Assembly: GCA_951406725.2 (NCBI GenBank)
Contig: OX597821.1
Span: forward strand, 54,436,001-54,500,000
Length of the DNA: 64,000 nt
Source of the DNA: Octopus vulgaris
Lineage: Eukaryota
Reading direction: 5' to 3'
This document shows positions 8,307 through 56,114 of the stretch, piece by piece. The first letter of the stretch is position 1, and every line of letters starts with the position of its first letter. The notes beneath the pieces are model-generated. The model was not told the DNA's origin. It saw nothing but the letters and a program-made list of their open reading frames with translations, and did no database searches. A program made the translations under genes and the position numbers.

Positions 8307-8379
8307 CATATACTATATACATATATATATACTATACATACATACATACAAATATATATATATATACATACATATATAT

Positions 8380-8915
8380 GAACGGCTGACTATGCTGCCC
8401 AGGTAGACAAACTTGTCTACCACATTCACAATTGTTCTTTCAACCAGGATAGCTGGTTTCATATATGGATTAACTGGTGCAGACTGGAACATTACAACAG
8501 TCTTGTCCAGGCTAATGGTGAGCCCAAATGCCTTGCAAGAAACAGAAATACGATTCGTAAGTATTTTCATGTCATCCACTGTATGAATGACTAAATCACA
8601 GTCATCTGCATAAAGGAGGACACGAATAAGAGACTGGAAAACTTTTGAATTGGCAGCAAAACAATGCAGATTAAAGAGGCCGCCAGGAAATCGATATCTG
8701 ATATATATTCCCAGAGATCTAACCTTAGCAAAAGCATGAGTAAAAGCAGCAGCAAAATACAAAGAAAAGAGAGCTGGGGAAAAGATGTCACCCTGCTTGA
8801 CACCATTCTCTACATTGACCAACATTGACCCAAGCCTCCATCCCATCATAAAAGGATTTAATTATAGATACAAAGTGATCTGGACATCCAAGTTTGCCAA
8901 ATATTTTCCATAGAA
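8380..8915 (-). mobile_element. RTE-clade (BovB-like) LINE reverse transcriptase fragment, pseudogenic
   Basis: ORF 8313-8849: [48 protein letters not shown]. Upstream: LWKIFGKLGCPDHFVSIIKSFYDGM. Confidence 0.9.
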
Positions 8916-9501: not shown

Positions 9502-10758
9502 TTGATAAAACGGTAAGAGACGTTTCCTTAGATCTTAATAAGAATATTTATAAGCCTTATAGGAAGCCCAATGATAGACTAAGTTATATTAATGTAGGTT
9601 CATGCCATCCCTCGATAGTATTCAAAAATTTAGTTAAAAATATTAGTAAGAGGATTTCTAGCCTCTCCTCTGATGAGGACATCTTCAATAGCGTTGCCCC
9701 AGTTTATAATAAGGCTTTAAAAGATAGTGGTTTTAGCGAAAAAATAAAATATACACCTATCACTAGCCCAACAGTAAGGAAAAGGAATAATAGAAATAGG
9801 AAGGTCATCTGGTTTACACCCCCTTACTCACCCGAGGTGGTCTTCAATATAGGTAAATATTTCCTAGCACTGATAGATAGACATTTTCCAGTTAACCATA
9901 CTTATAGGAAACTCTTCAATAGACACATTTAAAAATTAGTTTTAGTTCAACTACCAATTTGAAAAACATAATCAAACATAACATACAAAAAACACAACAA
10001 GAAAACAGCTGTTCATGCAGGAATAAAGAATTGTGCCCGCTAAATGGAGCTTGCATGTCCAAGACCATCATATATGAAGCTACCGTAAACTCTATAACCA
10101 CTAAAGACACTGTTTCGACGAAGAAATACGTGGGCCTTACAAAGAGTAATTTCAAGGCCAGGTTCAATAACCACACTTTGAGCTTTAGGCACTGGAACAA
10201 AAGAAAAGCGACACAATTATCTAATCATATTTGGTCTTTAAGAGATAAAGGTGTTGATTATAACATACAATGGAAGATTTTGGCCAGATGTAAGCCCTAT
10301 ACCAATGGCAGCGGAAGGTGCAGTCTATGCGACATGGAGAGATGGCTTATCTGGAAAAGCAGCTTAGACCCTACTACATGTCTAAATACAAGGACAGAGC
10401 TTTTCGGATCATGCCCACATGTGACTAAATTTCTGTTACGTTTTTGGTCCCCTAAAGAAAACAGATAGAACATGCTTTCTATGTTATGTCCCAAGAAGAA
10501 TTTATATATTTTTATATATTTTTATATATTTTTTATGTATTTTTATATAATTTTTATGACGAAAAATGCGAGTGATGTATAAGTACGCAGGCAAGCAGAG
10601 TTATAACACAGTAATTTCCCTTTATTTAACGGTATTTTTTCATAGCGTTTTCAAATAGCCAGATAACCGAAGAGATGGTGTTGTGGATTTCCACTTCTGC
10701 ATCTGAAAGTCAGTTTTATCTTGACTACCGAGTAATGTAACATATTATTGTATAGATA
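9502..10758 (+). mobile_element. 5'-truncated Penelope-like retroelement (Naiad-like), copy 1: RT C-terminus, Cys linker, GIY-YIG endonuclease, 3' UTR with hammerhead
   Basis: DVSLDLNKNIYKPYRKPND, VIWFTPPYS, CSCRNKELCPLNGAC, IIYEA...YVGLT...FKARFNNH, RCSLCDME, LNTRTE, CPH. A 1-bp frameshift lies near 9928 relative to copy 2. (TA)n on both flanks. Near-identical to 22954-24085. Confidence 0.92.
10661..10721 (+). ncRNA. Variant hammerhead ribozyme in PLE 3' UTR (stem III damaged)
   Basis: agataa-CCGAAGA-gatg...catc-t-GAAA-gtcag-TT-ttatct. Confidence 0.5.
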
Positions 10759-10829
10759 TATATATATAAAGAGTTTTCTCAATGTGGACCCAACATGAAC
10801 CCAAAAAAGGGACAAGCTATTCTCTTTGA

Positions 10830-13044: not shown

Positions 13045-14345
13045 CTAGATGAGATGCAGTTTGGTTTTGTGCCAAGTAGAAGCACTACTGATGTTATATT
13101 TCTGGCAAGGCAACTGCAGAAGCATTACCTAGCCAAAGATAACCCTCTGTACTTGGCTTTAGTTGACTTGGAGAAAGCTTGTGACAGGGTCCTCCAATCC
13201 CTTATCTGGTGGTCAATGCAGAAACTAGGGATAGGCGAGTAGTTGGTGAGAGCCATATGAGCCTTGTACAGAGACGCTATCAGTAAGGTGAGGGTGGGTA
13301 ACAAGTACAACGAATAATTTAGGGTACAAGTAGGGGTTCAGCAAGTATCGGTGCTCAACCCCCTCTTGTTCATCATAGTCTCCAGGCAATAACAGAGGAA
13401 TTTGAGACAGGGAGCTCCTGTATGCTGATGACCATTCTCTTACAGCAGAATCACTACCTGAACTAGAGAAGAAGTTCCAGATATCGAAGCAAGGTCTAGA
13501 ATCAAAGAGCTTTCAAGTCAAACTAGCAAAAACCAAGGTTTTAGTAGGAAGGCAGATAAATCACAAATCCCCTCAGATAGATGGCTCTGCTTAATCTGTA
13601 GAAAAGGTGTAGGCAGAATCTTCATAAGATTCAACCTTTGTGCGCTTTGGACTCATAAAAGGTGCAGTAACATCAGAGGAAGGTTAACAGGGAAACTAAC
13701 TTTTGTATGTGGAAGGTGCACAGGTACAATACATGCTGAAAATGGGCAGAAAATAGACTCCATCAACTACCAGGTGGGTAAGCTGAAGGTAGTAAATAGC
13801 TTCTGTTATCTAGATGACCAAATTAGTAGTGGAGGTGGATACTCCAAGAGTTCAACTGTGAGAATAAGATTAGGCTGGGCAAAGTTCAGAGAGCTCATAC
13901 TCCTGCTAGCAACAAAGGGCGTCTCTCTGAGTGAAAGGTACATTGTTTGATGCCTGTGTGTGAACGGCTATGCTGATGGCAGGGAAACTTGGGCTGAGGA
14001 CAGGTGAGGACATCCGTAGGCTTGAAAGAAATGAAACCAGTATGCTTCGCTGGATGTGCAGTGTCAGTGTGCATGTTTGACAGAGTGTAAGCATCTTGAG
14101 AGAAAAGTTAAGAATAATTGCATCAGATGTGGTACTGGTATTGTCATGTGATACATATGGACAAGGACAGCTGTGTAAAGAAGTGCTGATCTCTAACTGT
14201 AATCAGAACCTGTGGTAGAGGTTGACAAGGAAGACATGGGATGAGGTGGTGAAACATGATCTTTGAACTTTGGGCCTCACAGAGGCAATGACTGGTGATC
14301 GAAACTTTTGGCAAAGTGCTGTTCTTGAGAGAACCCATCAAGTCA
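13045..14345 (+). mobile_element. Decayed RTE-clade LINE (RT to 3' end) with internal Cys-rich finger
   Basis: LDEMQFGFVPSRSTTDVIFLARQLQ...LYLALVDLEKA.DRV, VGVQQ.SVLNPLLF, LLYADD, CLICRKGVG...LWTHKRCS...FVCGRC, FCYL, GWAKFREL, with stops and frameshifts. Confidence 0.88.
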
Positions 14346-17889: not shown

Positions 17890-18342
17890 GGCGTGGCTGC
17901 ATGGTAAGAAGCTTGCTTCCCAGCCACATGATTGCAGATTCAGTTCCACAATATATCACCTTGGGCAAGTGTCTTCTACTATAGCCACGGGTCAACCAAA
18001 GCCTTGTGAGTGGATTTAGTAGACGGAAACTGTAAGAAGACAGTCGTATATATATATACATACATATACAAACACACACACACACAAATACACATATATA
18101 TATGTTAATGTGTGTGTGTCTTTGTCTTGTGTCTGTGTTTCTCCCTACCATCGCTTGGCAACCGATGTTGGGGTGTTTACATCCCCATAACTTAGGAGTT
18201 CAGAAAAAGAGACAAATAGAATAAGTACCAGGCTTATAAAGAATAAGTCTTAAGGTCAATTTTCTGACTAAAAACCCTTTTAGGCAGTGCTCCAGCCTAG
18301 CTGCAGTCAAATGTCTGAAACAAGTAGAAGAGTAAAAGAATA
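17890..18342 (+). mobile_element. SINE family B, near full length
   Basis: ggcgtggctgcatggtaagaagcttgcttcc head, ccttgggcaagtgtcttctactatagc core, internal microsatellite, ...ctgaaacaagtagaagagtaaaagaataa tail. Confidence 0.75.
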
Positions 18343-21366: not shown

Positions 21367-21710
21367 CACATATATATATGTGTTTAAAAATAGGATAAAA
21401 TCTTTATCAGAATTTATCAAGCAGTCCATGTGAAAAACCTCATAAGGAAAATTCTTTTAATTATTCCCTTTAAATATATTTATTCATATAAGAGCATTAC
21501 TATACATAAATGCCTGATGATATGAGAGACTCTTAAAGTCAAAACTACCATAATAAATACAGTGTACTGAACACGAGGGAAATGCAACTATTGAAGCGAC
21601 CTCCTTAAAAACAGATTCAGCTGCAGATCATATGATAAATGTATATATATATATATATATATATACACATACACACATATATATATATATACACACACAC
21701 ACACATATAT

Positions 21711-21742
<32 letters not shown>

Positions 21743-22290
21743 TGTGAAGTATATTTGCTACCTAAATGTGGTGGACCCATAGGGTACGATACTACTGTTG
21801 TTTATAGCCCCAGGAGGACATCACTTCCAGCTGGCTAACGACACACTGTCTGTGTCTAATTAGTATTTGTGAAGGAAAATCATCATTCCCATCTCTAGCC
21901 TTAAGTGATATGCACAGACCCGGGTTTCTGGGTAGTAACCCATCATCAGTGTGTGATAATCACCAGCTAGTGATGAAAACTCATTCCAAACGCAAAATAC
22001 TATCTGCTTTTTCCAGTGACAAACTGTCGCTGATCTTGAAAAAGGAGAAACAAGTAATAATAAATCTCTGAGCGAAATGTAAACAGTAGCAGCACGGAAT
22101 CATAAATTCCCTTCGCAAATACTAATTGGAGACAGCGTGTCATTAGCCAGCTGGAGGAGATGTCCTCCTGGGGCTATAAATAACAGTAGCACTCCTCCCC
22201 CCTATGGGTCTGCCACATTTAGGTGGCAAATATACTTCCCGATTCCGTGCTGCTACTGTTTACATCTCGCTCAGAGATTTATTATTGGTA
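21743..22290 (-). mobile_element. Non-coding PLE-end (pLTR-like) element with internal inversions
   Basis: 21746-21880 is a diverged inverted copy of about 22106-22240. 22056-22101 is an inverted copy of 22241-22286 with one mismatch. Contains an intact HHR. Flanked by (TA)n/(TACA)n. Confidence 0.7.
21913..21953 (-). ncRNA. Canonical minimal type I hammerhead ribozyme
   Basis: Minus strand: caca-CTGATGA-tgggt-tact-accca-GAAA-cccggg-TC-tgtg. All core bases are intact, the cleavage triplet is GUC, and stem III is palindromic. Confidence 0.9.
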
Positions 22291-22303
22291 CATACATACA
22301 TAC

Positions 22304-22347
<44 letters not shown>

Positions 22348-22443
22348 ATAAAACGGTAAGATAACAAAAGAAAGAAAGAGACCTCAATATTATGTAAATA
22401 GAGGAAATTTATCTATACAATATGTTACATTACTCGGTAGTCA

Positions 22444-22506
22444 AGATAAAACTCTGAGTTTCAGATGCCGAAGTGGAAATCCACAACACCATCTCATCGG
22501 TTATCT
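22444..22506 (-). ncRNA. Variant hammerhead ribozyme (CCGAUGA core) in inverted pLTR
   Basis: Minus strand: agataa-CCGATGA-gatg-gtgtt-gtgga-tt-tccac-ttcgg-catc-t-GAAA-ctc-a-gag-TT-ttatct; 6-bp stem I. Confidence 0.7.
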
Positions 22507-24024
22507 GGCTATTTGAAAACGTTATGAAAAAATATACCGTTAAAAATGAAGGGAAATTACTCTGTTATAACTCTGCTTTGCCTGCGTACTTATACATCGC
22601 TCGCATTTTTCGTCATAAAAATTATATAAAAATACATAAAAATATATAAAAATATATAAAAATATATAAAATCTTCTTGGGACATAACACAGAAAGCATG
22701 TTCATGTACCAATAATAAATCTCTGAGCGAGATGTAAACAGTAGCAGCACGGAATCGGGAAGTATATTTGCCACCTAAATGTGGCAGACCCATAGGGGGG
22801 AGGAGTGCTACTGTTATTTATAGCCCCAGGGGGACATCTCCTCCAGCTGGCTAATGACACGCTGTCTCCAATTAGTATTTGCGAAGGGAATTTATGATTC
22901 CGTGCTGCTACTGTTTACATTTCGCTCAGAGATTTATTATTACTTGTTATTACTAGGTTCATGCCATCCCCCTATAGTATTCAAAAATTTAGTTAAAAAT
23001 ATTAGTAAGAGGATTTCTAGCCTCTCATCTAATGAGGACATCTTCAATAGCGTTGCCCCAGTTTATAATAAAGCTTTAAAAGATAGTGGTTTTAGCGAAA
23101 AAATAAAATATACACCTATCACCAGCCCAACAATAAGGAAAAGGAATAATAGAAATAGGAAGGTCATCTGGTTTACGCCCCCTTACTCACCCGAGGTGGC
23201 CTTCAATATAGGTAAATATTTCCTAGCACTGATAGATAGACATTTTCCAGTTAACCATGCTTATAGGAAACTCTTCAATAGACACAATTTAAAAATTAGT
23301 TTTAGTTCAACTACCAATTTTAAAAACATAATCAATCATAACATACAAAAAACACAAGAAGAAAACAGCTGTTCATGCAGGAATAAAGAATTGTGCCCGC
23401 TAAATGGAGCTTGCATGTCCAAGACCATCATATATGAAGCTACCGTAAACTCTATAACCACTAAAGACACCGTTTCGACGAAAAAATACGTGGGCCTGAC
23501 AGAGGGTAACTTCAAGGCCAGGTTCAATAACCACACTTTGAGCTTTAGGCACTGGAACAAAAGAAAAGCGACACAATTATCCAATCATATTTGGTCTTTA
23601 AGAGATAAAGGTGTCGATTATAACATACAATGGAAGATTTTGGCCAGATGTAAGCCCTATACTAACGGCAGCGGAAGGTGCGGTTTATGCGACATGGAGA
23701 GATGGCTTATCTGGAAAAGCAGCTTAGACCCTACCACATGTCTAAATACAAGGACAGAACTTTTCGGATCATGCCCACATGTGACTAAATTTCTGTTACG
23801 TTTTTGGTCCCCTAAAGAAAACGGATAGAACATGCTTTCTGTGTTATGTCCCAAGAAGATTTTATATATTTTTATATATTTTTATATATTTTTATGTATT
23901 TTTATATAATTTTTATGACGAAAAATGCGTGCGATGTATAAGTACGCAGGCAAAGCAGAGTTATAACAGAGTAATTTCCCTTCATTTTTAACGGTATATT
24001 TTTTCATAACGTTTTCAAATAGCC

Positions 24025-24078
24025 AGATAACCGATGAGATGGTGTTGTGGATTTCCACTTCGGCATCTGAAACTCAGA

Positions 24079-24085
<7 letters not shown>
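24025..24085 (+). ncRNA. Variant hammerhead ribozyme at the 3' terminus of PLE copy 2
   Basis: Same sequence as 22444-22506, but it runs into (TA)n right after the GUU triplet (24079-24081). Confidence 0.65.
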
Positions 24086-24121
<36 letters not shown>

Positions 24122-24169
24122 GTATGTATGTATGTACACACAAATATATATATATGCATATATATGTAT

Positions 24170-24310
24170 GTAGCTGTGTGATAAGAAGCTTGCTTCCCAA
24201 CCACATGAATATGGGTTCAGTCCCACAGCATGGCACCTGGGGCAAGTGTCTTCTACTATCACCTCAGGTCAATCAAAGCCTTGCAAGTGGATTTGTCAGC
24301 TTGAAATGAA
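24170..24310 (+). mobile_element. SINE family B head
   Basis: aagaagcttgcttcccaaccacatg...gggttcagtccc...ggcaagtgtcttctactatc. Confidence 0.7.
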
Positions 24311-24340
24311 AGTTCATCGTATATATAAATGTGTGTGTGC

Positions 24341-24414
<74 letters not shown>

Positions 24415-42169: not shown

Positions 42170-42850
42170 ATCTTTTGCCTATTACAGTCATTAGACTGCA
42201 GCCTTATTGGGACACTGCCTTGAATTTTTAGTCAAAAACAATCAAACCCAGCACTTATATTATAAGCCTGGTACTTATTCTGTCTCTTTTGCCCTAAATT
42301 ATGGGGACATAAACACATCAACACTGGTTATCAAGTGGTGATGGGGGGGACAAACCCAGACACACACACACACATAGATATATCACCGTGATCACCGTGA
42401 CTGACCAGGCTATTAAATGTTGCTACACATCACTGGTCACAATGCACTTCACATTGTTTTAGCCTTCAAATGACGCCAACCCGCTGGCTAAGCGAGCAGG
42501 CCAACAGAAGAAAGAGTGAGAGAAAGTTGTGGTGAAAGAGTACAGCAGGGATCACCACCACCCCTTGCCAGAGCATCATGGAGCCTTAGGCATTTTCGCT
42601 CAATAAACACTCACAATGCCCAGTCTGGGAATCAAAACCACGATCCTACAACCGTGAGTCCGCTGCCCTAACCACTGAGTCATTGCGCCTCCACACATAG
42701 ATATATATATATACATATATATATATGATAGGCTTCTTTCAGTTTCTGTCTACGAAATCCAATCACAAGGCTTTGGTCAGCCAGCGGTTATAGTAGAAGA
42801 CACTTACCCAAAGTGCCAAGCAGTGGGACTGAACCCAGAACCATGTCCTT
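42170..42850 (-). mobile_element. SINE family B interrupted by another tRNA-SINE (about 42383-42695)
   Basis: Family B tail and head flank an inner element whose minus strand starts ggaggcgcaatgactcagtggttagggcagcggactc. Confidence 0.65.
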
Positions 42851-43104
42851 GGATGTATTAGTAACTATTAATAACTATATTTTTTGAGAAGCTGTGATAT
42901 TCAGGGTATCTCTGAAAACAGATATGATTATGAATTAGGAAAGAACATGTAATTTTAATTCAAGGTCAGTAAGAATTTTTTTCAAGGTACATGATTTCAA
43001 AAGCATAGGACAGTATAAACATCAGCTAATAATGTTACCAATTTTCTAAAGGAATTTAACATCTTTGTTAAAAATAAAATTCTTCATTTCTAATATATGA
43101 TTAA

Positions 43105-50955: not shown

Positions 50956-51056
<101 letters not shown>

Positions 51057-51060
51057 ACAC

Positions 51061-51177
<117 letters not shown>

Positions 51178-52534
51178 TTATATATATTAGTAGAACATAC
51201 AGAAGCAGAAATTGATACATGTGTTTCAAAAGTTTAGTAACATTCTGTCTCTTCCAGTTCAAAGTAATATCTAGTATGTATATGATAATATATCTGTATA
51301 TGTTCGCTCTCACATACAGAATAACATCCACAGACACTCACACTCATATATACATGTGCTTGCATGAAAATAGATGTATGTACATGTGTGTGTGTGTGTG
51401 TGTACGTGCACATGCGTGTCTGTGTGTTATCATTATTTGTCACTCTTATTTCTAGATTGTATATGCAACTATTTTGGTTGCTGGCATCTTAGCCTCTTAA
51501 CTTAGAGGTCAGGCTATCTTCAATATTCTTTAATTCGATTTCATACCTTATAATTTCAGTCTGAACTTAAATAGTTTACCATGAACCTTGCTCTATTTGA
51601 GATTTTATTCTTCAGATTTCACATTATTTGGCAGTCAAGCATTAAGCTTAGCTTAGCAAAGATCAGTTTATTTAAATACTAATGGGTTTGTTTGGGAACA
51701 ACAAACATACATTCACCTAAGTTTAAAACACTCTTTTCACTCTTGTTAACCCTTAATTCCTCCCTCTTGGAAATGGATGTATATTTAGCATTTAAACTGA
51801 ATAGAATCATGAGTTGTGCCAAAGATAAAAACAGGATTAGCTGTATAAACTTGTCAGTAATGTATGTACTTGTGAATGTGTTTGCTCGTATATACATACA
51901 AACACATACATACATAATACATACACACACACATATTATCTTTTACTTGTTTCAGGCATTAAACTATGGCCATGCTTGAGCACCACTTAGGAGAATTTTT
52001 TAATCAAACAAACCAACCCTCGTGCTTACTTCTTTTAAGCTTGATAAGTTGTGCAGACATAAGCACACCAGCACCAGCTGTTGAGTGATGGTGGCAGAGA
52101 AACACTCACACACACACACACACACACACACAACGGGCTTCTTTCAGTTTCCGTCTACCAAATCCTCTCACAAGTGGTTGGCCCGAGGCTAGAATAGAAG
52201 ACCCTTGCTCAAGGTGCTATACAATGGGACTGAACTTGAACCATATAGTTGGAAAGCAAGCTTCTTACCACACAGCCACACTTGTATACATGAGTACTCT
52301 TTTTGTCATTGGATTTTTGCCCATGCTGGAGCATTACCACCTTGGAAGGTTTTAGTTGAACAAATCAGCCCCAATTCTCATTTTTATGTCTGGTACTTAT
52401 TCTATCAGTTTCCTCAGCTGAACTGATAATTTACAGGGATGAAAACAAACCAACACTGGTTGTCAAATGGTTGGGGGACAAACATAGACGAAGAGGCAAC
52501 ACACATGTATAATGAACTTTTACAATTTCCATCT

Positions 52535-55295: not shown

Positions 55296-56114
55296 AAATG
55301 TAAGTCTGCCTGTTCCAAAACTTACTGTTCATAGGCAAACTTCTGATGCATTCCATTTTGTTAATGTAAATATATTAGTTCAACTAGTTTGTCTGCTTTT
55401 GGTTAAACACCAAAGTTAATCCGTTCAATATTCTGACTATCATAAATTTAGTTATCTTAGAACCCCCTCAGGGTCAGAGGAGCTGTTATCTGTGATCTCA
55501 TATTATAAACAGTCTGTTATGTATAATATGTTATGTTACTCTGACCTACAGAGTGAAATAAAGATTTATAGTACATTTTATTAGAATTATTATAAATATT
55601 AGCACATTTTTGTAAAGAAATATATACAAAGTATTTATATCTGAAGAAGAGAGAATATGTTTTGCTATCCTGGAACTTGGAGATATGAAAGAGATCTGAA
55701 ATTATAACAACCCACTTCCTGATCCTGTGATTTTGACTAGATATGATTTTAACACCAAAAATAATAGCAATAATAAAAAAGAAAATAGAAAAACATATTC
55801 GTTGTAAGACTAGGTATGTTTGCAGACACCATCTGCATTGTATAATTAATCTTCTGATAAAATGAAATTTGATGTCGTAGTTAGTGTCAAAGTTTGATAA
55901 TTCTCGCCAATAATTTTTTTTTTAATGAACCAATGTAAAAAAAAAACTGAAATACAAGAAATAACTGTGTGGTAAGAAGCTTGCTTCCCAATCACATGCT
56001 TCTGGGTTCAGTTCCACTGCATAGTAACTTGAGCAGGTGTCTCCTACTAAAACTTTGGGCCAACCAAAGCCTTGTGAGTGGATTTGGTAGATGGAAACTG
56101 AAAGAAGCCTGTTT

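What the first reader, a model, noticed from the sequence alone, without database searches (positions are those of the whole stretch)
22049..22954. PLE insertion that captured an inverted 245-bp copy of its own upstream flank
Seen: 22704-22948 is the reverse complement of 22049-22293, with one mismatch noticed. It sits between the inverted pLTR (22345-22703) and the truncated body (from 22954), joined by a 5-nt filler (attac). Copy 1 lacks it. Inference: during integration the polymerase switched from element template to nearby target DNA and back, leaving a record of PLE template jumping. The result is a nested palindrome, and the ORF track's 324-aa ORF gets a chimeric N-terminus from flank DNA.
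Basis: partly seen in the sequence, partly recalled or inferred. Interest (0 to 1): 0.72.

Follow-up and report, generated by a model that had tools for sequence, protein, structure and literature searches.

The report
Penelope insertion patched with neighbouring hairpin
A young Penelope-like jumping gene holds, where its two mirror-image halves meet, a reversed 245-base copy of the DNA just beside it, likely a repair patch made while the insertion was being closed, a kind of scar already described for other retrotransposons.

Summary
In detail: 22704-22948 is the reverse complement of 22049-22293 (244/245), between the inverted pLTR and the truncated body of a Hydra-type Penelope-like element, with a 5-nt filler. 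Other family copies join stub to body without it (copy 1; 8 of 15 listed contig joints), and it shares rare variants with the local copy, so it was copied from this locus.

Corrections: the "flank" is not unique DNA but the fold-back end of an earlier 356-nt hammerhead repeat; the two large inverted repeats are interleaved, not nested; the chimeric ORF is probably incidental; nothing identifies the reverse transcriptase as the copier. Best reading: a templated patch made while the two cDNAs were joined head to head, likely by host repair.

Such patches are published for L1 and R2, and this scan noted them at Penelope junctions several times on other DNA. Two oddities remain: the copied tract is a 46-bp hairpin plus exactly 7 nt on each side, and the right flank mirrors the left over 21 non-TA bases. 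Neither junction was seen in public contigs or reads (the runs appear to be other individuals), and the empty allele is unknown.

The parts
22049..22293 (+). F: source tract of the copy; a 46-bp hairpin (22056-22286) with 7-nt overhangs on both sides; near end 52 nt from the insertion point
22704..22948 (-). F': inverted copy of F (244/245); shares the rare G at 22758 with F; private G at 22831
22949..22953 (+). filler ATTAC; with 2 nt before and 1 nt after, it repeats an 8-nt word lying 12 nt upstream in the copied tract
   Evidence: 12 of 576 possible fillers reach 8 nt; composition-weighted P 0.035
22346..22703 (-). P': inverted pLTR stub of the Penelope-like element (358 nt, with 100-nt tail absent from the forward copy); hammerhead-like core at 22500
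   Evidence: family terminus near 22350 in loose ends
22954..23828 (+). 5'-truncated body: end of ORF with CxCx5C linker, GIY-YIG nuclease, CxxC and CxH motifs (Hydra type)
   Evidence: compared with text of PMC8557442
23828..24085 (+). P: forward pLTR, 100 nt shorter than P'; hammerhead-like core at 24031
22288..22345 (.). left target microsatellite (TACA repeat plus TA tract)
24083..24137 (.). right target microsatellite; mirror image of the left one, including 21 non-TA bases
   Evidence: longest match among 2415 flank pairs of 35 TA tracts
21746..22101 (-). neighbouring element, forward piece: one 356-nt unit with a minimal type I hammerhead motif at about 21953-21913
22102..22288 (+). neighbouring element, inverted stub with 48-nt tail; its terminus is a high-copy repeat end with varied flanks
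22854..23828 (+). 324-aa ORF whose first ~33 codons come from the copy and filler; likely incidental
9503..10761 (+). copy 1 of the same family: 16-nt inverted stub joined directly to the body, no captured DNA (control)

Best explanation
The 245-base piece is a reversed copy of the DNA beside the insertion site, likely made by host repair synthesis while the two halves of a Penelope-like insertion were being joined. Shown: the element sits in a TA microsatellite as an inverted stub plus a truncated forward body, and the copy lies exactly between them. Inferred steps: (1) both strands were nicked in the TA tract and each primed a cDNA from the element's 3' end; (2) the left end was resected, leaving single-stranded top strand; (3) the 3' end of the stub cDNA landed on its own strand 410 nt back, just outside a pre-existing 46-bp hairpin, and was extended through it; (4) once both arms were copied, template and new strand could each refold, leaving 7 paired bases and ejecting the end; (5) the end re-primed on 2 nt, added the filler and was joined to the body cDNA with 1 nt of overlap. 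The mirror-image route (body cDNA copying the bottom strand toward the break) gives the same sequence and is not excluded.
For: Position at the head-to-head junction and orientation. Local origin: F and F' share G at 22758 where the repeat family has T in 99.7% (X1) and 99.8% (X15) of summed contig depth, and F' contains the neighbour's own fold-back junction, which lies elsewhere in other copies (joints 22754-22922, 22790-22905, 22860-22923) plus 5 nt of microsatellite. Not a family feature: copy 1, and 8 of 15 listed joints (10 more not shown) join stub to body directly. Similar age: 1/245 and 1/258 mismatches in the two arm pairs (95% intervals both about 0.01-2.2%). Filler fits the loop-out pattern of synthesis-dependent end joining (PMC5728401 passages). 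A PLE protein cleaves and extends both strands in vitro (PMC11167929). L1 templated insertions are typically under 250 bp and close to the site (10.1101/2024.08.27.596794); R2 cDNA ends snap back on nearby target DNA (PMC11371274).
Against: No exact microhomology at the stub-to-copy junction (0 nt), which a repair polymerase would usually need and which suits reverse-transcriptase jumping or ligation better. 245 nt and a 410-nt loop far exceed the 30-nt range reported for SD-MMEJ. The source begins 52 nt from the insertion point, against 'within 15 bp' for most L1 cases. The age intervals are wide. Neither junction was bridged in the 32 pieces listed of 527. The mirrored right flank is not explained by this model. 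The filler statistic is modest and was chosen after seeing the filler.
Confidence: 0.5

Rival explanations
1. Same timing and template, but the element's own reverse transcriptase jumped from the RNA 5' end onto local single-stranded DNA and copied it.
For: Zero microhomology at 22703/22704; the stub ends right at the ORF stop codon, a plausible RNA end; L1 ORF2p is discussed as a possible DNA-templated copier (PMC11702581). Homology-free jumping by R2-type enzymes is recalled, not checked here.
Against: No PLE enzyme is shown to copy DNA in the parts I read; the filler shows slip-and-reprime synthesis typical of repair; the far end is a join to an opposite cDNA, not a return to RNA.
Confidence: 0.2
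2. The piece was cut out rather than copied: the displaced bottom strand folded into the hairpin, was clipped 7 nt outside each arm, was ligated to the stub cDNA, and the gap was refilled from the top strand.
For: Bottom strand 22293 to 22049 reads exactly as F'; symmetric 7-nt overhangs; blunt first junction; capture of cleaved single-stranded fragments is proposed for L1 (PMC11702581 supplement, Fig. S10 legend).
Against: Needs two cuts and an untemplated ligation; the filler still needs templated synthesis.
Confidence: 0.1
3. The element inserted normally; a later break at the fragile inverted-repeat centre was patched with neighbouring DNA.
For: Any deletion-plus-patch covering the old junction would give the same layout; arm divergences cannot separate the events; a scan note describes post-insertion changes around a PLE palindrome (e1-8666025, not tested).
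Against: Needs a second event within a short time; both arm pairs show one mismatch.
Confidence: 0.12
4. Assembly or library artefact (fold-back chimera).
For: Neither junction seen in four public contig sets or in two raw-read runs.
Against: Each arm pair differs by a substitution in which one copy keeps the ancestral base; there is a templated filler; the piece sits at the family's natural junction. The runs hold at most 0.71 of the sampled words and appear to be other individuals; contigs show presence, not absence.
Confidence: 0.05
5. RNA chimera: the reverse transcriptase switched from the PLE RNA to an RNA of the neighbouring hammerhead-repeat family, starting at that family's normal 3' end.
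For: F' begins 5 nt from that family's terminus (22709-22710), where loose ends of many contigs lie.
Against: F' carries locus-specific variants, the locus-specific fold-back junction and 5 nt of local microsatellite; only a transcript of this very locus would do.
Confidence: 0.03

Closest known systems
Inverted-pLTR insertions of C-terminal-endonuclease Penelope-like elements, Hydra clade (PMC8557442: passages, section 11, supplement search; PMC3846280: passages)
   Same: Inverted 5'-truncated copy next to the forward copy, one-sided tail, TA target, CxCx5C linker, CxxC and CxH motifs around the nuclease.
   Different: A copy of local DNA between the halves is not described in the passages read; tail difference here is 100 nt against 30-40; not the listed family Hydra-1_Obim (different hammerhead; two peptides not found in the held supplement).
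L1 templated insertions and inverted duplications of target DNA (10.1101/2024.08.27.596794 passages; PMC11702581 passages and supplement legends S9, S10)
   Same: Local genomic tract of about 250 bp or less duplicated inside a new retrotransposon insertion; inverted duplication next to an insertion.
   Different: Germline PLE with both halves primed from the element's 3' end; source starts 52 nt away; tract bounded by a hairpin.
R2 snap-back 5' junctions (PMC11371274 passages)
   Same: cDNA 3' end primes extra DNA synthesis on itself or nearby target DNA before the junction closes.
   Different: Engineered single-primed insertions; there the template is mostly the cDNA itself.
Synthesis-dependent MMEJ in Drosophila (PMC5728401 passages)
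   Same: Filler forms a direct repeat of primer, insert and microhomology near the junction.
   Different: Reported range is within about 30 nt; it can account for the filler but not by itself for the 245-nt tract.
Animal non-LTR retrozymes and minimal PLE hammerheads (PMC7229834 passages), for the neighbouring element
   Same: About 350-nt unit with a type I hammerhead motif with palindromic stem III.
   Different: Here one unit plus an inverted stub with tail, in PLE layout; cleavage, circular RNA and lack of a coding master not tested.

Membership tests
Endonuclease-bearing Penelope-like elements | C-terminal GIY-YIG endonuclease | tested here: met
   Pfam GIY-YIG weak (E 0.022, below cut-off); motif IY...YVG...R...H; Atlas hits 0.96-0.97 including GIY-YIG clusters
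Endonuclease-bearing Penelope-like elements | Telomerase-like reverse transcriptase in the same ORF | not testable with these tools
   Both window copies are truncated downstream of the RT core; no genome held
Endonuclease-bearing Penelope-like elements | Inverted 5'-truncated copy with one-sided tail | tested here: met
   Both window copies and 8 of 15 listed joints
Endonuclease-bearing Penelope-like elements | Hammerhead motif in the pLTR | tested here: inconclusive
   Relaxed core pattern found at 24031, 22500 and 10667; no Rfam hammerhead hit in 21600-24400
Hydra clade | CxCx5C linker, CxxC before E, CxH after N, TA target | tested here: met
   against section 11 of PMC8557442
Hydra clade | RWK and DKT motifs; placement in RT tree | not testable with these tools
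   RT not present in the window
Templated insertion at a retrotransposon junction | Insert is a duplicate of local genomic DNA, source still in place | tested here: met
Templated insertion at a retrotransposon junction | Formed during integration | tested here: inconclusive
   Equal arm divergence with wide intervals; no empty or intermediate allele seen
Polymerase theta / SD-MMEJ junction | Filler lies in a repeat motif within 30 nt | tested here: met
   8-nt repeat, P 0.035
Polymerase theta / SD-MMEJ junction | Primer microhomology at the start of synthesis; short tract | tested here: not met
   0 nt at 22703/22704; tract 245 nt
Non-LTR retrozyme (neighbouring element) | 150-450 nt unit with type I hammerhead motif | tested here: met
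   356-nt unit, stems I-III and GUC site readable; minimum-energy fold did not give the ribozyme shape
Non-LTR retrozyme (neighbouring element) | Self-cleavage, circular RNA, tandem arrays, non-autonomy | not tested
   No RNA data used

The most novel reading that the evidence does not exclude
Fold-back scars left by earlier Penelope-type insertions act as ready-made cassettes for later ones: the hairpin sets where copying starts and stops (or where the strand is cut), so repeated targeting of the same TA tract builds interleaved, multi-family palindromes and fuses ribozyme-repeat ends into new retroelement copies.
Probability: 0.25. Interest if true: 0.55.

Novelty: new variant of a known kind. 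Interest (0 to 1): 0.3.

Why it matters
How Penelope-like elements close their head-to-head junction is unresolved. Patches of local DNA at that junction suggest that each host end primes its own cDNA and that the free cDNA ends are joined like a DNA break, with resected flank available as template. One locus adds little beyond what L1 and R2 already show and what this scan has noted elsewhere; a rule linking tract ends to hairpins would be new and can be tested by counting.

Tried and rejected
Whole-genome survey: no genome held, so the frequency of such patches in this family was not measured.

MITE reading of the source tract (46-bp terminal repeats, local hop): rejected, because the copy includes 7 nt beyond each arm, the inner arm is preceded by family-internal sequence (X15 loose end), and the element has a hammerhead unit in PLE layout.

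Rfam over 21600-24400: 44 matches, all below gathering score, mostly miRNA models on microsatellites; no hammerhead.

Read support: raw runs X20 and X21 gave 1 and 70 reads, none over the copy. At 100% identity no listed piece bridged a junction (32 of 527 shown) and 22805-22826 was uncovered in 4 of 4 runs; a hole is no evidence of absence. X1 pieces over source-specific sites had depth 51-62, near the depth of single joints (37-86), which fits one copy rather than two, but depth is no copy number. A bridging contig in X1 was considered from bin depths and found unnecessary. Only 22346-23827 and 22673-23002 were laid, so the empty allele and outer junctions are untested.

Literature: three searches for local flank copies inside PLE insertions listed no such report; most subscription papers are not in the library. 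PMC2895639 gave no passage for my terms. listing was not followed up. Scan look-ups by sequence and by nearby place found nothing.

Full report
Observation. The inverted duplicate is real: 22704-22948 matches the reverse complement of 22049-22293 at 244 of 245 bases, with sharp ends. I call the source F and the copy F'. F' lies between an inverted pLTR (P', 22346-22703) and a truncated body (from 22954) that ends in a forward pLTR (P, 23828-24085; 257 of 258 bases mirror P'). A 5-nt filler separates F' from the body. The order F, P', F', P means the two inverted repeats cross; they are not nested. The ORF claim is arithmetically right (324 aa from 22854), but nothing suggests it is used.

The host element. 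The body encodes a GIY-YIG-like nuclease (weak Pfam hit below cut-off; Atlas neighbours at 0.96-0.97) with CxCx5C, CxxC and CxH motifs. These match the description of the Hydra clade in PMC8557442 (passages and section 11). It is not the listed Hydra-1_Obim. The RT is absent, so clade membership rests on the nuclease end and the TA target. An octopus host is suggested by earlier scan notes and by my recall of such microsatellite-rich genomes; I did not test it.

Not a family feature. Copy 1 (9503-10761) has a 16-nt stub joined to the body and continues in element sequence across the position of F'. In contigs of two public runs, 8 of the 15 listed joints (10 more not shown) join stubs ending at 22399-22575 to bodies starting at 22995-23785, skipping F'.

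What was copied. F is not unique DNA. Contig depth over F' is high, and many contigs end at 22710-22713 with unrelated flanks. F is the right end of an earlier insertion at 21746-22288: a 356-nt unit on the minus strand with a minimal type I hammerhead motif, plus an inverted stub with a 48-nt tail, which is the PLE layout. This makes local origin something to prove, and three facts do. F and F' share G at 22758, where the family has T in 99.7% and 99.8% of summed depth. F' contains the neighbour's own fold-back junction, which lies elsewhere in other copies and was spanned by a 70-nt contig of depth 51 in X1. F' also starts with 5 nt of the local microsatellite. At the one mismatch the neighbour's other arm agrees with F, so F' is the derived copy.

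Junctions. Stub to F': no exact microhomology. F' to body: the filler with 2 nt before and 1 nt after repeats an 8-nt word 12 nt upstream; 12 of 576 possible fillers do as well (weighted P 0.035). This fits loop-out synthesis as described in PMC5728401 (passages), but that model works within about 30 nt and does not cover a 245-nt tract.

Mechanism. A PLE protein cleaves and extends both target strands and has two start sites on its RNA (PMC11167929, parts 1-2 of 4). I infer that P' and the body are two cDNAs primed from the two host ends, whose 3' ends had to be joined. F' reads as an extension of the P' end on its own strand 410 nt back, which needs the left flank to be single-stranded. The mirror route from the body end gives the same product. 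The step 'back to the element' is therefore a join to the other cDNA. The sequence cannot name the polymerase: the filler points to host repair, the blunt first junction to the RT or to ligation. Both arm pairs have one mismatch, which fits a single event, but the intervals are wide.

Two oddities. First, F is a 46-bp hairpin (22056-22286) plus exactly 7 nt on each side. Under simple uniform models both ends fall within 7 nt of the hairpin base with probability 0.0001-0.002, a figure computed after noticing the pattern. Refolding of template and new strand would eject the polymerase just past the second arm, or a nuclease could clip the hairpin. Second, the right flank mirrors the left over 21 non-TA bases, the longest match among 2415 flank pairs of the 35 TA tracts in the window (next 16; longest mirror around any single tract 8). 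This mirror and F' overlap by 6 nt and together form a continuous inverted copy of 22049-22345. A similar right-flank motif occurs at 51048-51069, so the right side may be native and the left a fold-back scar of the earlier insertion; this is inference, and only the empty allele can decide.

Independent support. None of the listed runs holds more than 0.71 of the sampled words. No listed piece bridges either junction (32 of 527 shown), and none of four runs covers 22805-22826 at full identity. Raw-read runs gave no reads over F'. This neither confirms nor refutes the assembly. The substitutions, the filler and the position at the natural junction make an artefact unlikely.

Comparison with what is known. 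L1 templated insertions (22 cases, typically under 250 bp and within 15 bp of the site; 10.1101/2024.08.27.596794, passages; its supplementary figure 4d was not visible to me), inverted duplications beside L1 insertions (PMC11702581, passages and supplement legends) and R2 snap-back junctions (PMC11371274, passages) cover the phenomenon. For PLEs, capture of host DNA between pLTRs and template jumps were proposed in PMC3846280 (passages), but three searches listed no paper on inverted local copies at the PLE junction. Earlier notes of this scan describe the same thing in this and other genomes; they are unchecked and are not counted as support.

Verdict. A real and clean case of a known kind of junction scar in a less studied element class. 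Interest 0.3; the hairpin-bounded tract is the part worth a genome-wide count.

Noticed in passing
window 21746-22288: The neighbour's two arms are only 84% alike (147 columns) while its tail and the matching internal piece agree at 45 of 46 (P 0.003 at the arm rate); the two halves may come from different RNA templates or units.
   Followed up: partly
window 22288-22345 and 24083-24137: Flanks of the insertion are mirror images over 21 non-TA bases; origin unresolved.
   Followed up: partly
window 24085, 10761, 22346: Family 3' ends differ: the forward copies stop 100 nt and 61 nt short of the long tail end, more than the 30-40 nt tail reported for PLEs.
   Followed up: no
window 22703 / 23828: The inverted stub ends exactly at the last base of the ORF stop codon, possibly the 5' end of a short RNA.
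   Followed up: no
window 24031 (+), 22500 (-), 10667 (+): Hammerhead-like core with C in place of U (CCGAUGA or CCGAAGA) and a long stem II; no Rfam hit in the stretch scanned.
   Followed up: partly
window 24173-24295, with matches at 2608-2728, 17896-18017, 42755-42852, 52159-52276, 55965-56086: A dispersed repeat of about 120 nt, 75-82% alike, just right of the insertion; looks SINE-like (recalled, not tested).
   Followed up: no
window 8313-8861 (-), 13462-13950 (+): Stop-to-stop frames resembling decayed LINE reverse-transcriptase regions (resemblance recalled, not searched).
   Followed up: no
runs X20 and X21: Same species label and study, same amount read, but 1 versus 70 reads laid on the element, far fewer than the contig depths of X1 suggest; the label may cover different lineages.
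   Followed up: no
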